Positions 1-20,565 of a DNA stretch of 32,000 bases are shown here, one piece after another. Numbering within the stretch: the first letter of the stretch is position 1; every line of letters begins with the position of its first letter. The stretch spans positions 1,050,001 through 1,082,000 of the forward strand of contig NZ_AP014945.1 in the NCBI RefSeq assembly GCF_001548275.1. Reading direction: 5' to 3'. The notes under the pieces were generated by a model. That model made no database searches and was not told the origin of the DNA. It saw only the letters and a list, made by a program, of their open reading frames with translations. Origin of the DNA: Caldimicrobium thiodismutans (GTDB lineage Bacteria; Desulfobacterota; Thermodesulfobacteria; Thermodesulfobacteriales; Thermodesulfobacteriaceae). Position numbers and translations under genes: made by a program.

Positions 1-1540
1 TTTCAGGAAGGTCCTTAGCAATCTCTACAAAATTTATAGCCACATAGGGTTTAAAGTCTTCTGAAAAAATCTTTTCAAGAAAAAAATAAACCCCGCAGGA
101 GGTTGAAAGCAGAGAAAGACCCCCGGATGGAAGAACTTCAATATGAGAGATTCCAAAGGGTTCATAGATGGAAAACCCCAATTCCACATCACTTGCCAGT
201 CTTAAATCTCTGGTGGTTATGTCTTCAGGAAAATCAATACCACATTTTCTTTTGGATAATCCAAATTGATTAATAAAAATAGCTTTAATAGCTTTAGCTT
301 GGGAATTAAATTTCTCAATAAGTTGGTAAACTTCAATTTCATAGCCTACCAGATCTGGCCAACCAATTTTGTGTTCAAAGGGCCAGCCATATTCCTGGAC
401 CATTCGGTCAACAGCCTCAACAGGTCTTCCCTGGGGGACTTGTGAAGCAAGAAGAAAGAAGATCCCTTTTAGGTTTTCCCTTGCAAGCAGGGAATCTAAG
501 AAGAAAAAGAGTTTTATATCCCTCCAGACACCTTTACTTTTAACTAATCGACAGGCATGAGAAAAAATAAGGTCAACCCTATCACATCCCTTTTGACTTA
601 GACATTTGGAAAATTTTTTCCTGCTAAGTTGAACCTCTTCAAAGGATATGTGATCTACAGACAGGCCATTATAAACTACCTTAATCTTTGATGGATCTGC
701 TTCTGGGACAAGAAATTTATATTCCTCAGCAACAAGATCGCCTACTGCAAATATTTTATCAAAGCGGTGAGCCAGTTTCACAAGGGCTGTTCTATACCAG
801 TCCATCTGAGGTCCAAATATCTCTTCAAGACTTCGTTGGTTAGCTTTGGACTTTTCAAGAAGATTATAAAAGGTGATATCATGTCCAGGCAAATTTTCCA
901 CAATTCTACGAACCGGTGCTACCTCATGGGCATAAAATATTCTCTGATGCTTTTCAGGATTAAATTCAGGGTGAAGTTCAAGAGCTAATAGAGAGGGAAT
1001 TCCCATATACTCATGTCCAAAATGGTAAAATTTTGAGGCTTTTGGATATAGTAGTTTTAAAAATTCAAGATAGCAGAAACTGATTCTAAGATACTGCTCA
1101 TAGTCCCAATCTCGTTCATATTTATCTGAGGAAAGCCCAAATTTTTCCCAAAAGAGGTATTTTTGATAAATTACCTCCTCCTTTTTCATCTGGGTTATGT
1201 CAACAAGCAGGACATCAACCTTTGCCTGACGGGAAGGATTTAATTCACTAAGGAGGCGTCTTTTCCCATATACAATATCAATGTTATATTTTTCAAGAAC
1301 AGGTTTGAAAAGTTCACCAAAGTGGCCTGTGTCATAGTGATCTTTACTGGAATAGTAAACAACTCCGTCTTTTCCAAGGCGCGTTGAAGCAGAGCCAATG
1401 TATTCAAAGAGGGGGCCATAAAAGAGGGTCTTTTCAAAAAAGTTTTGATAACTTGGAGCTGTGCAAAGCCCTGCGAGAACTTCTCCAATGCCACCAATTT
1501 TATATAACGCCTCATGCGATATGTGTATAGCCACCTTCAT
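1..1540 (-). CDS. Glycosyltransferase, glycogen-synthase-like (GT-B type); N-terminus complete, C-terminus beyond window edge
   Basis: Hand translation gives an uninterrupted minus-strand frame from ATG (1540-1538) to position 1. It is missing from the ORF track because no stop lies in the window. The N-terminus MKVAIHISHEALYKIGGIGEVLAGL resembles the K-x-GG-x-G-D/E-V motif of glycogen-synthase-type enzymes. Track ORFs 369-560(+), 767-988(+) and 1240-1515(-) are shadow frames of it. Confidence 0.6.
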   Translation of the reverse strand, partial: MKVAIHISHEALYKIGGIGEVLAGLCTAPSYQNFFEKTLFYGPLFEYIGSASTRLGKDGVVYYSSKDHYDTGHFGELFKPVLEKYNIDIVYGKRRLLSELNPSRQAKVDVLLVDITQMKKEEVIYQKYLFWEKFGLSSDKYERDWDYEQYLRISFCYLEFLKLLYPKASKFYHFGHEYMGIPSLLALELHPEFNPEKHQRIFYAHEVAPVRRIVENLPGHDITFYNLLEKSKANQRSLEEIFGPQMDWYRTALVKLAHRFDKIFAVGDLVAEEYKFLVPEADPSKIKVVYNGLSVDHISFEEVQLSRKKFSKCLSQKGCDRVDLIFSHACRLVKSKGVWRDIKLFFFLDSLLARENLKGIFFLLASQVPQGRPVEAVDRMVQEYGWPFEHKIGWPDLVGYEIEVYQLIEKFNSQAKAIKAIFINQFGLSKRKCGIDFPEDITTRDLRLASDVELGFSIYEPFGISHIEVLPSGGLSLLSTSCGVYFFLEKIFSEDFKPYVAINFVEIAKDLPE

Positions 1541-1902: not shown

Positions 1903-2137
1903 TTTGTTTCTTTGGTTTCAGGGTTAAAAAATCTGAAGGCCTTTTGAGCCTCTTTTGTGCCCCTTGAAAACTAAGCTAATCTTCCCTTTCGTTGCCCATC
2001 AACTGTAATCTCAAGTTTTTTTCTCTTACTTTAAAAATTTACAACCTTGCATGGGTCATACACCTAAGGTCTGCCCCTTAGTAATGACAAAAATTGCCCT
2101 GTTTTTAAAAAAGGATTGTATAAAAAAAGAACTGACA

Positions 2138-2172: not shown

Positions 2173-3723
2173 ATGGAGAAAAAACTTCCCATCGGGATTT
2201 CAAGCTTTGAAAAGATTAGAAGTGAACCCTATTATTATGTGGATAAGACACCTTTTGTGGCAAAACTTGTTGAAGAGGGAACTTACTATTTTCTCTCCCG
2301 CCCAAGGAGATTTGGAAAATCCCTTTTTGTGGACACCCTGAAACAGGCCTTCCTTGGAAGAAAAGAGCTTTTCCAAGAGCTCTATCTTGAAAAGAACTGG
2401 GACTGGAGTGTTAGGTATCCTGTTATTCATATAAGTTTTGGCGCTGGCAATATCTTAAGTGAAGAAGATTTCCTTTTGCGGATAAAAAGAATTCTTAAGA
2501 AAAATCATAAAACCCTTCAATTAGATTGGGAAGATTCCTCTGATTATAGGGCTTCTTTTGAGGATCTTATTGAAAAGGCCTATGAAAAATATAAAACCAA
2601 GGTAGTGATTCTGATTGATGAATATGACAAACCCATTCTTGATCGCATAGAAAACAAAGAACTAAGTTTAACCTTAAGGGAGCATTTAAAGAATCTCTAT
2701 GGGGTTATAAAGGATGCCGATGTTTATTTAAAGTTTGTCTTTATTACAGGGGTTTCAAAATTCTCAAAGGTCTCCCTTTTTTCAGGCCTAAATCAGTTAA
2801 GAGATATTACTTTAAGCAAGGAGTATTCAACTATTTGCGGATATACTCAAAGGGAACTTGAAGAGGTTTTCAGAGAGGAACTGCAAGATAAGGATTTAAA
2901 GCTTATAAAATGCTGGTATAATGGTTATTCCTGGCTTGGGGAGCCTCTCTACAATCCCTTTGATATCCTTCTCTATTTAGAGGAAAAAAAATTCCACCCC
3001 TACTGGTTTGAAACTGGGACTCCAAGTTTTCTTGTAAAACTTTTAATGGAGAAGCGTTTTTATCTTCCTGAGCTTGAAAATCTTGTGGCAACAGACTCAC
3101 TTATTGGGTCCTTTGATATAGATAGGGTTAGGCCTGAGAATCTCCTTTTTCAAGCAGGCTATCTTACCATAAAAAGAATGTTTAGCCTTGCAGATAAGAT
3201 TCTTTATGAGCTTTCCTATCCCAATAAAGAGGTAAAGTTAGCCTTAAATGAGGTGCTTGCTGAGTATTTTACAGGGGATACAGGGGAAGTTCCTTTAAAG
3301 ACAAGGGATTTTCTTTTGGCTCTTGAGGGAAATCAGTTTGAGAAGATGAAGAAGGTTCTTGAGGGGCTTTATGCAGGGATACCCCATGATTGGTTCAGGA
3401 AAAATGAGCTTTCCCGTTATGAGGGGTATTATGCAAGTTGTTTTTATGCCTTTTTATGTGGGTCAGGGCTTGAGGTAATCCCTGAGGATATAACGAATAA
3501 GGGGCAAATAGATTTGACGGTGCTTTATAGGGAAAGAGTTTATCTTTTTGAGTTTAAGGTGGTTGAGGGGGAGGAGGGAGAGGGTAAAGCTTTAGCTCAA
3601 TTGAAAGAAAAAGGGTATCATAAGAAGTATGAGGGGAAGTCTAAGGAGATTTATCTTATCGGGATTGAGTTTTCTTCAAGGGAGAGGAATATCAAGGGCT
3701 TTTTCTGGGAGAAGATAAATTGA
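2173..3723 (+). CDS. AAA-ATPase-like domain protein with C-terminal PD-(D/E)XK nuclease-like domain (Pfam AAA-ATPase_like + PDDEXK_9 architecture, from memory)
   Basis: N-terminus LPIGISSFEKIR...YYYVDKT...FLSRPRRFGKSL is the typical start of this family. The C-terminus GQIDLTVLY...YLFEFKV...AQLKEKGY fits a D...E-x-K nuclease core. Confidence 0.75.
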   Translation: MEKKLPIGISSFEKIRSEPYYYVDKTPFVAKLVEEGTYYFLSRPRRFGKSLFVDTLKQAFLGRKELFQELYLEKNWDWSVRYPVIHISFGAGNILSEEDFLLRIKRILKKNHKTLQLDWEDSSDYRASFEDLIEKAYEKYKTKVVILIDEYDKPILDRIENKELSLTLREHLKNLYGVIKDADVYLKFVFITGVSKFSKVSLFSGLNQLRDITLSKEYSTICGYTQRELEEVFREELQDKDLKLIKCWYNGYSWLGEPLYNPFDILLYLEEKKFHPYWFETGTPSFLVKLLMEKRFYLPELENLVATDSLIGSFDIDRVRPENLLFQAGYLTIKRMFSLADKILYELSYPNKEVKLALNEVLAEYFTGDTGEVPLKTRDFLLALEGNQFEKMKKVLEGLYAGIPHDWFRKNELSRYEGYYASCFYAFLCGSGLEVIPEDITNKGQIDLTVLYRERVYLFEFKVVEGEEGEGKALAQLKEKGYHKKYEGKSKEIYLIGIEFSSRERNIKGFFWEKIN

Positions 3724-4382
3724 TGTGTTACCTTGGTTTATATCCGTTAGATAAAGAAGAAGGATGTGGCTGAAGTAAGGGATGGCTTTTTGTGTATGTG
3801 TGAGGGTGGAGAGAGGAGAGAAAAGGCAAATACATGGGGTTGTCATGGGGGTGGATGCGGGGGTTGTTTGGGCTTAATACTTGATACAGGTTTATAAACA
3901 AATTTTAAAAAATCAGGGTTGACTTTTTGGAGAAATGTGGTAAGAGATGGGAAGATGGGTTGAAAATGAGTAGGTCTTTGACAAGTGAATAGCGTTTTTT
4001 CTTCTTTTGGAGTTTGGGTTTAAGTTAAGAGTTTGGGGCTAAGTTAAAGAGGATTTTTGGGTTGAGAGTAATGGGGAAGGTGTGAGCTTTTTAAAGGTGT
4101 GTATAAATATATTAAGTGAAGAATATGATAATTTTTTAGGGACATGAAGGGTTGATATAGCAAGGGTTTTAGGGGGTAATTTTTGGGGTAGGAAATTGAG
4201 AATCAATTGCAGTTATAGGGTGAAAAAGTGTGGTTATAAGTTATTGATATAATGGGGAAAATTTTGTGTTTCCCTGGTTTTGGAAGTGAGGGATGATGCG
4301 GGTTTTAGGGGGTTGATTTGAAAAATATAGTTTGTGATAAACAATCACAAGGTAGGATTGATGAGCTTTCTGAGGTGTAAGG

Positions 4383-4862
4383 GTTGAAACCTGCCCTACT
4401 TCAAAAGGGATTGCGACCATCCAGCTGTATCAGTGCACCATGTTAAATCCACTCTTTCTAAGGTTGAAACCTGCCCTACTTCAAAAGGGATTGCGACTAA
4501 AGATGGATTATTTGTGCAAACACCTATTATGGTTGAAACCTGCCCTACTTCAAAAGGGATTGCGACTTCTATGGGCATGATTTTGTGAGAGATGAGTCAA
4601 AATAGGGTTGAAACCTGCCCTACTTCAAAAGGGATTGCGACTTTTTGAACGAAAGACCAATAATGCATATGATTATTTTAAAGGTTGAAACCTGCCCTAC
4701 TTCAAAAGGGATTGCGACCAGGCACCACCCAAAAACTCCCCTTCAGCAACTCTCTTTGTTGAAACCTGCCCTACTTCAAAAGGGATTGCGACTCAAATAA
4801 AACCGCTTTAAAAGGATCATTCAACTTGTTGAAACCTGCCCTACTTCAAAAGGGATTGCATC
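4383..4862 (+). CRISPR. CRISPR array with 7 repeats of 35 nt (GTTGAAACCTGCCCTACTTCAAAAGGGATTGCGAC) and 6 spacers of 45, 34, 40, 42, 39 and 35 nt; no cas genes in the window
   Basis: Repeats start at 4383, 4463, 4532, 4607, 4684, 4758 and 4828. The first six are identical; the last ends ...ATTGCATC. The + orientation is inferred from the ATTGCGAC 3' end (an 8-nt crRNA-tag style) and from the degenerate last repeat. Confidence 0.95.
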
Positions 4863-5039
4863 AGGAGAGTAAAGGGATTGCATCAGAAGGGTAAAGGGAT
4901 TGCATCGGAAGGGTAAAGGGATTGCATGAGGGGTGAAAAGGAATTGCATAAGGGGTGTAAAGAGATTGCATGAGAAAAGGTAAAGGGATTGCATGAAAGG
5001 GAGTAAAGGGATTGCATGTGAAGAGTAAAGGATTGCGAC
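4852..5039 (+). repeat. Tandem array of 9 units with a 22-23 nt period, each carrying only the 3' end of the CRISPR repeat (AAAGGGATTGCAT) plus about 9 purine-rich nt
   Basis: GGGATTGCAT-type cores at 4852, 4874, 4896, 4918, 4940, 4962, 4985, 5008 and 5030. The last unit restores ...GATTGCGAC. One further isolated GGATTGCAT sits at 5124-5132. Confidence 0.85.
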
Positions 5040-5267
5040 CTATCGGGGCTCAAAATCTTTTGCCCTTATCAAACCTGTGCTAATTTCTGGCTTAATTCAA
5101 ATAAGACAGCATGGAGTGGTAGAGGATTGCATGGGGGTAATTTGCCAAAAAGTCAGTCTTATTGTGAAAAGCTCGAAATTACTTGCTAAAGGATGCAGAT
5201 TTAAGTCCCAAAAGATAAGAGGGCAAACAAACACGAGTTTTCTATCCTTGAATAAAAACTTGATGTT

Positions 5268-17512: not shown

Positions 17513-17552
17513 GGTTGTGTATGCGTCCAGGTCTTTTGAGACTTAAATAGTA

Positions 17553-20529: not shown

Positions 20530-20565
20530 GTTTAAACCTGCCTTGGTTCAAAAATTGATTGTAAT
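20530..20565 (+). repeat. Degenerate solitary copy of the CRISPR repeat
   Basis: GTTTAAACCTGCCTTGGTTCAAAAATTGATTGTAAT against GTTGAAACCTGCCCTACTTCAAAAGGGATTGCGAC. By eye 20 of the first 24 positions match, and GATTG is retained after a 1-nt indel. Confidence 0.6.

What the first reader, a model, noticed from the sequence alone, without database searches (positions are those of the whole stretch)
4849..5135. The array ends in a 22-nt-period tandem of units containing only the 3' end of the CRISPR repeat
After the degenerate seventh repeat come eight further units with a regular 22-23 nt period. Each has AAAGGGATTGCAT, which is the last 13 nt of the repeat with CGAC changed to CAT, plus about 9 purine-rich nt (caggagagt, cagaagggt, cggaagggt and so on). 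The final unit (5030-5039) restores the authentic GATTGCGAC end. An isolated copy lies at 5124-5132. These units lack the 5' two-thirds of the repeat and leave no room for a spacer, so normal adaptation did not produce them. Possible explanations are slippage-driven expansion of the repeat tail, a trailer element that binds a Cas or crRNA-handle-recognising factor, or a sponge for the 8-nt tag. I do not know of a described equivalent.
Basis: seen in the sequence. Interest (0 to 1): 0.6.

Follow-up and report, generated by a model that had tools for sequence, protein, structure and literature searches.

The report
Amplified end-cap of a CRISPR array
The odd 22-base tandem at the end of this leftover CRISPR array is a shrunken, multiplied copy of a spacer-less end piece that related hot-spring bacteria also carry, most likely built up by DNA copying slips; I found no description of this end piece and no proof that it has a function.

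Summary
The tandem is real (4849-5036, period 22, 8.5 copies). It ends an orphan type III-A-type array in a complete Caldimicrobium genome with no cas1, cas2, RAMP or cas10 genes. It is not unique. Five related Caldimicrobium genomes, two metagenome contigs and four genomes of a sister genus carry the same element: a repeat ending GATTGCAT instead of GATTGCGAC, then 8-10 purines (95% purine, against 49% in spacers), usually followed by another full or partial repeat and no spacer. Periods run from 14 to 45 nt. The 22-nt unit equals that unit minus a 19-nt hairpin. The 'isolated copy' belongs to a second cluster behind a 39-nt spacer and a decayed repeat. Decayed copies also lie upstream of several AAA-ATPase genes. 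None of 57 other Desulfobacterota genomes with the same repeat tail shows the change. Best reading: an inherited, lineage-specific end-cap multiplied by repeat misalignment, now a relic. A role in spoiling the extra terminal crRNA is plausible in relatives but untested. One result is unexplained: the cores carry 2 changes against 16 in the linkers (p=4e-5).

The parts
4230..4382 (+). CRISPR leader (proximal part, similar to relatives' leaders), inside a C-poor tract from 3724
   Evidence: similar leaders ahead of related arrays; 5% C on + strand over 3724-4382
4383..4827 (+). six identical 35-nt repeats ending ATTGCGAC and six spacers of 34-45 nt (orphan type III-A-type array)
   Evidence: near-identical repeats lie beside csm, cas6, csx1, cas1 genes in relatives
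4828..4862 (+). repeat 7, full length, with the GATTGCAT end (first cap unit)
   Evidence: 2 mismatches, both in the last 3 nt
4862..5026 (+). seven collapsed units: 13-nt repeat-tail core plus 9-10 nt purine-rich linker, period 22-23
   Evidence: the junction GT/AAAGGG equals the repeat minus a 19-nt TGAA...TTCA hairpin
5027..5039 (+). last collapsed unit with the normal CGAC end
   Evidence: clusters also close with a CGAC unit in G002, G004, G009, G052 and L087
5040..5078 (+). 39-nt spacer-length stretch embedded in the cap (probable old spacer)
   Evidence: the same layout occurs in relatives with unrelated spacers
5079..5113 (+). decayed full-length repeat ending GCATG
   Evidence: ungapped local alignment, shuffle p=0.008
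2088..2129 (+). solitary decayed cap unit upstream of the putative promoter of the AAA-ATPase/PD-(D/E)XK gene
   Evidence: same position in about seven paralogs
20530..20565 (+). solitary decayed repeat upstream of the M16 peptidase gene
   Evidence: 21/32 ungapped identity
5268..6812 (-). murJ, converging on the array's trailer (context only)
   Evidence: no array tail seen downstream of murJ in eight relatives within the flank held, up to 1.5 kb

Best explanation
The tandem is a collapsed and amplified copy of an inherited array end-cap of Thermodesulfobacteriaceae type III-A arrays. SHOWN: in relatives the oldest repeat ends GATTGCAT, followed by 8-10 purines and usually a second repeat without a spacer; these units occur in 1-3 copies, also one spacer in from the end, and as the only remnant next to a leader. 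INFERRED: (1) the cap arose once in an ancestral array; a CGAC to CGAT change followed by loss of the G is one route, since CGAT ends occur in outgroup terminal repeats. (2) Because the linker lies between two repeat cores, misalignment during replication duplicates, moves and deletes it like a spacer, refreshing the repeat body while the 3' end stays old. (3) In this lineage the unit lost a 19-nt hairpin (TGAA...TTCA), leaving the 22-nt unit, which was then amplified. (4) With the type III-A genes gone, the tandem is now a relic. It works like a mutated terminal repeat, not like a new RNA gene.
For: Cap at 12 of 13 Caldimicrobium array ends that came from the array BLAST and are assembled (my tally) and in four genomes of sister genus g6. 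Repeat bodies in the units mostly match each genome's own repeat. Period and retained part vary (14, 16, 18, 20, 22, 35-36, 40, 43-45 nt), so 22 nt is not conserved. Spacer-less 'leader + CAT repeat + linker' relics in G004 and G009 are the expected end state of spacer deletion. The collapse junction equals the repeat minus an inverted-repeat-flanked 19-mer. The complete genomes G018, G021, G024 (G024 has a III-A locus) and 57 outgroup genomes lack the cap, so such arrays exist without it. Host lacks cas1, cas2, RAMP, cas10. Repeat misalignment is the proposed cause of array deletions and duplications (PMC11472070).
Against: Inside the tandem the 13-nt cores carry 2 changes and the 9-nt linkers 16 (binomial p=3.6e-5), and similarity does not fall with distance (Mantel rho -0.15, p=0.78). 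Simple duplication followed by neutral drift does not predict this. The CAT plus purine-run pattern persists between genera whose repeats differ by several bases. My searches required CAT, which inflates its apparent conservation.
Confidence: 0.55

Rival explanations
1. Selected cap that spoils the extraneous crRNA made from the last repeat. In III-A relatives Cas6 would still cut the terminal repeat, but the product has a changed tag (last three bases) and a guide of only 8-10 purines followed by repeat sequence that folds on itself, so it cannot guide targeting. The window's tandem descends from this cap.
For: Predicted RNAs from 25 cap units are more structured than 160 ordinary crRNAs (median MFE at 37 C -7.6 vs -2.7 kcal/mol; paired fraction of the guide at 70 C 0.37 vs 0.12). 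In about half the units the real linker folds more strongly than swapped spacer sequence. For class 1 systems the extraneous crRNA comes from the last repeat, and mutations and guide-sequestering hairpins are described countermeasures in other types (PMC13187072, PMC12080349).
Against: The terminal repeat's own hairpin is not consistently disrupted. A-rich linkers add no structure, and much of the extra structure is simply the next repeat's hairpin. The window's units are unstructured. The units are kin, so the statistics overstate. G018, G021, G024 and the outgroups do without the cap.
Confidence: 0.22
2. Multivalent binding site or decoy: the 13-nt core is bound as DNA or RNA by a Cas protein (Cas1-Cas2, Cas6, Csm4) or a host factor, and the linker is only a purine spacer; 22 bp is about two helical turns.
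For: Core conserved and linker variable inside the tandem. Solitary copies with the same core sit at a fixed position upstream of a putative -35 box of about seven AAA-ATPase paralogs; six strong intergenic hits outside the tandem against 0.4 expected.
Against: The period is not conserved in relatives. No type III or adaptation protein is left in the host. The units lack the hairpin that Cas6 enzymes recognise, and the Csm tag pocket holds the 5' end of a processed crRNA (own knowledge; PMC8964682 for the tag). The solitary copies are explained by duplication together with the gene, since in G002 a cap lies upstream of the same gene family. No convincing copies in viruses, phage genomes or plasmids.
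Confidence: 0.13
3. Insulator against antisense transcription: read from the converging murJ side, the tandem is an unstructured, C-rich, G-poor tract that could load Rho and stop read-through into the array.
For: The minus strand of 4849-5039 is 37% C and 7% G, a skew reached by 0.4% of intergenic windows. Rho is encoded. murJ converges on the trailer. No intrinsic terminator was found between murJ and the array.
Against: In several relatives the gene behind the cap runs in the same direction as the array. Rho loading sites need no exact 13-nt core (own knowledge). The leader has the same strand skew, which suggests a regional bias.
Confidence: 0.08

Closest known systems
Degenerate terminal (trailer-end) repeats of CRISPR arrays, and array change by repeat misalignment (PMC11472070; bioRxiv 10.1101/2022.05.19.492656)
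   Same: The oldest repeat is altered at its 3' end; units are duplicated, moved and deleted between repeat cores; orphan and collapsed arrays result.
   Different: The same alteration plus a purine-only linker recurs across two genera, forms spacer-less multi-unit clusters, and here is collapsed to a 22-nt tail-only tandem. I found no description of this in the papers searched.
Mechanisms against extraneous crRNA in types II-A, II-C, V-A and VI (PMC13187072, PMC12080349)
   Same: Position at the extra repeat; mutated repeat; in many relatives a predicted hairpin over the would-be guide.
   Different: Type III is not mentioned in the main text of either paper (0 occurrences). No consistent block of the repeat hairpin here, and the window's collapsed units form no structure.
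Solitary repeat units and Racr RNA anti-CRISPRs (PMC10651486)
   Same: Repeat-like units without a spacer or cas genes; solitary copies exist in this chromosome.
   Different: Chromosomal and attached to the host's own array; the window's units lack the stem-loop that RacrIF1 needs; no viral or plasmid copies found.
Type III-A (Csm) CRISPR arrays with an 8-nt repeat-derived 5' tag (PMC5256923)
   Same: Repeat with a short C-rich/G-rich stem before an 8-nt tail; spacers of 34-45 nt; near-identical repeats lie next to cas10, csm2-5, cas6, csx1 and cas1 in relatives.
   Different: No cognate cas genes in this genome; the cap units are not repeat-spacer units.

Membership tests
Ordinary CRISPR repeat-spacer units | Full-length repeats separated by unique, foreign-derived spacers of regular length | tested here: not met
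   The tandem has 13-nt tails and 9-10 nt purine linkers; spacers of this array are 34-45 nt.
Type III-A array (upstream 4383-4862) | Repeat family tied to cas10 and csm2-5 | tested here: met
   Met in relatives G002, G011, G024.
Type III-A array (upstream 4383-4862) | Cognate cas genes in the same genome | tested here: not met
   No Cas1, Cas2, RAMP or Cas10 over cut-off; only one Cas6 hit, beside a different repeat family.
Degenerate terminal repeat | Leader-distal position with changes from the array consensus | tested here: met
   Leader upstream of 4383; repeat 7 altered in its last 3 nt; further decay downstream.
Extraneous-crRNA suppression elements | Mutation in the extra repeat | tested here: met
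   GAC replaced by ATN in the tag region.
Extraneous-crRNA suppression elements | Competing hairpin that blocks the repeat hairpin or hides the guide | tested here: inconclusive
   No consistent block of the repeat hairpin; guide more structured in relatives but not in this window.
Extraneous-crRNA suppression elements | Reduced production or activity of the extra crRNA in cells | not testable with these tools
   Needs RNA-seq and interference assays.
Racr / viral solitary repeat units | Encoded on a virus or plasmid behind its own promoter | tested here: not met
   Chromosomal array trailer; no convincing viral, phage or plasmid copy; no promoter-like site in the tandem.
Racr / viral solitary repeat units | Intact Cas6 stem-loop | tested here: not met
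   The C-rich arm is deleted in the 22-nt units.
Described non-coding RNA family (Rfam) | Match to a curated covariance model | tested here: not met
   Only three tRNAs in the window at gathering thresholds.

The most novel reading that the evidence does not exclude
Thermodesulfobacteriaceae type III-A arrays carry a selected, heritable end-cap module (repeat with an altered tag plus a purine-only mini-spacer, often tandem) that neutralises the extra terminal crRNA or binds a Cas or host protein. It would be an undescribed class 1 counterpart of known class 2 mechanisms, and the window holds its most amplified, minimal form, which points to the essential 13 bases.
Probability: 0.3. Interest if true: 0.6.

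Novelty: new variant of a known kind. Interest (0 to 1): 0.36.

Why it matters
If neutral, it is a clear natural record of how array ends decay, duplicate and leave repeat debris across a genome, and a caution that array finders will miscall these ends. If selected, it bears on an open question, how type III systems avoid wasting effector on the guide-less crRNA from the last repeat, and it offers a small swap test in a cultured thermophile or a heterologous Csm system.

Tried and rejected
Coding role: stops within or right after the tandem in all six frames; the base after CAT varies, so no conserved ATG. Stable RNA fold or G-quadruplex: MFE -0.6 kcal/mol at 70 C, about equal to shuffles at 37 C, no quadruplex in the MFE. 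Linker blocks the repeat hairpin: inconsistent. Linker copied from the leader's last bases: some close pairs (12/15 and 13/15), but no lineage-specific match (permutation p=0.51) and no excess over shuffled linkers (p=0.28), so composition explains it. Simple stepwise slippage with drift: no distance decay. Conserved embedded spacer: unrelated between genomes. Self-targeting spacers: no genome match beyond chance. Phage-borne copies: none convincing. Other taxa: the scan of GTDB species genomes gave only Thermodesulfobacteriaceae plus chance hits; the metagenome scan gave two relevant contigs among 57 mostly unrelated tandem repeats. One literature search failed on syntax; the others found no description.

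Full report
Observation. The window holds seven 35-nt repeats at 4383-4862; six are identical and the seventh differs in its last three bases. Tandem Repeats Finder reports 4849-5036, period 22, 8.5 copies. Each unit is the repeat's tail ending GATTGCAT plus 9-10 mostly purine bases; the last unit (5027-5039) ends CGAC. Behind it lie a 39-nt stretch, a decayed full-length repeat ending GCATG at 5079-5113 (shuffle p=0.008) and one more linker and tail copy.

Context. The genome is one contig of 1,814,952 bases. Records of same-genus genomes are titled Caldimicrobium; from memory the size fits C. thiodismutans TF1. It has no Cas1, Cas2, RAMP or Cas10 match over cut-off. One Cas6 hit lies beside a different repeat family 320 kb away. 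In relatives, near-identical repeats lie beside cas10, csm2-5, cas6, csx1 and cas1, so this is an orphan type III-A-type array. The leader is upstream, so the tandem is at the oldest end. murJ converges on it.

Relatives carry the same element. Of 13 Caldimicrobium array ends that came from the array BLAST and are assembled, 12 have it (my tally; the exception is G004:C21). Positions 2-8 of 35 linkers are 95% purine, against 49% for the start of ordinary spacers. The next unit starts at different points of the repeat in different lineages, giving periods of 43-45, 40, 35-36, 20, 18, 16 and 14 nt. The window's layout (cap units, a CGAC unit, one spacer, another cap) recurs in G002, G004, G009 and L087 with unrelated spacers. 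G004 and G009 also hold several loci of leader plus cap with no spacer. These relatives are short-read assemblies, so the internal arrangements need long-read confirmation, although the closed genome here shows the same layout.

Limits of the pattern. The complete genomes G018, G021 and G024 lack the cap. In 401 genomes of the phylum, 57 outside the family have arrays with the same repeat tail, and none shows the CGAC-to-CAT step. The ends that could be inspected are intact or end CGAT. A scan of all GTDB species genomes found the tandem form only in this family. It is therefore lineage-specific and not required for such arrays.

How the 22-nt unit arose (inferred). Removing bases 3-21 of the repeat, a segment flanked by the inverted repeat TGAA/TTCA, joins GT to AAAGGG, which is the junction seen in seven of eight units. 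The simplest path is a long repeat-plus-linker unit like those in G011 and G054, a hairpin-skipping deletion, then amplification. Repeat misalignment is the proposed cause of deletions and duplications in arrays (PMC11472070), and it accounts for refreshed repeat bodies, moved linkers and spacer-less relics.

Dispersed copies. A profile built only from relatives finds six strong intergenic hits outside the tandem, against 0.4 expected. Most lie upstream of a shared putative promoter of AAA-ATPase/PD-(D/E)XK paralogs, including window 2088-2129. Since a cap lies upstream of the same gene family in G002, co-duplication with the gene explains them without a function.

Evidence for a function. Inside the tandem the cores carry 2 changes and the linkers 16 (p=3.6e-5), with no decay of similarity along the array. 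Plain duplication and drift do not predict this, and it remains unexplained: selection on the core, hypermutable purine runs, or linkers gathered from different donors would each fit. Predicted RNAs from cap units in relatives are more structured than normal crRNAs, as an extraneous-crRNA spoiler would be (PMC13187072, PMC12080349). However, the repeat hairpin is not consistently blocked, A-rich linkers add nothing, and the window's own units are unstructured. The minus strand is strongly C-rich and Rho is present, but gene orientation behind the cap varies among relatives. No viral or plasmid copies were found. An origin of the linker from the leader end was tested and not supported.

Verdict. 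The feature is real, shared within one bacterial family, and not described in the papers I searched. The scan's own index showed no look-alike in other genomes. It is best filed as a new variant of the degenerate terminal repeat: an inherited end-cap amplified by misalignment and now a relic (0.55), with a selected crRNA-spoiling role (0.22), a protein-binding role (0.13) and a Rho insulator (0.08) as rivals. Interest 0.36.

Noticed in passing
window 5195-5226 (+), 17521-17552 (-), weaker at about 20630; 60 copies genome-wide: A dispersed intergenic motif of about 30 nt (core TCTCAAAAGATATGGACGCAT). In 36 of 60 copies a TTG, often the start of a -35-like box, begins exactly 8 nt after it. It may be a regulator site or the end of a small mobile element.
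   Followed up: partly
window 2173-3723 and about 14 other loci of G000: Expanded AAA-ATPase_like + PD-(D/E)XK_9 gene family (63-86% identity) with a shared putative promoter, preceded by mosaics of REP-like palindromes.
   Followed up: partly
window 20530-20565: Solitary decayed type III repeat upstream of the M16 peptidase gene, next to a REP-like palindrome.
   Followed up: partly
window 3724-4382: The leader region has only 5% C on the + strand.
   Followed up: partly
L300, L307, L317, L318, L319 (G004, G009): Several loci consist of a full CRISPR leader plus a single CAT-ended repeat and no spacer, two of them directly upstream of a gene that looks like a PD-(D/E)XK (Rpn-like) nuclease (family not checked).
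   Followed up: partly
L022 (G024 array): One array mixes two repeat ends, GCGAA and GCGAC, in alternating blocks, a sign of recombination within the array.
   Followed up: no
G000:C1:731100-733145 (L031): Lone Cas6 hit abutting a split array of a second repeat family, with no cas1 or cas2 in the genome.
   Followed up: no
window 2-1540 (-): An ORF of at least 513 aa with no Pfam match, running off the window.
   Followed up: no
L146 (G054:C106:55-137): The two tandem cap units have different repeat bodies (one with a longer GC-rich stem), which suggests the distal unit keeps an older repeat type.
   Followed up: no
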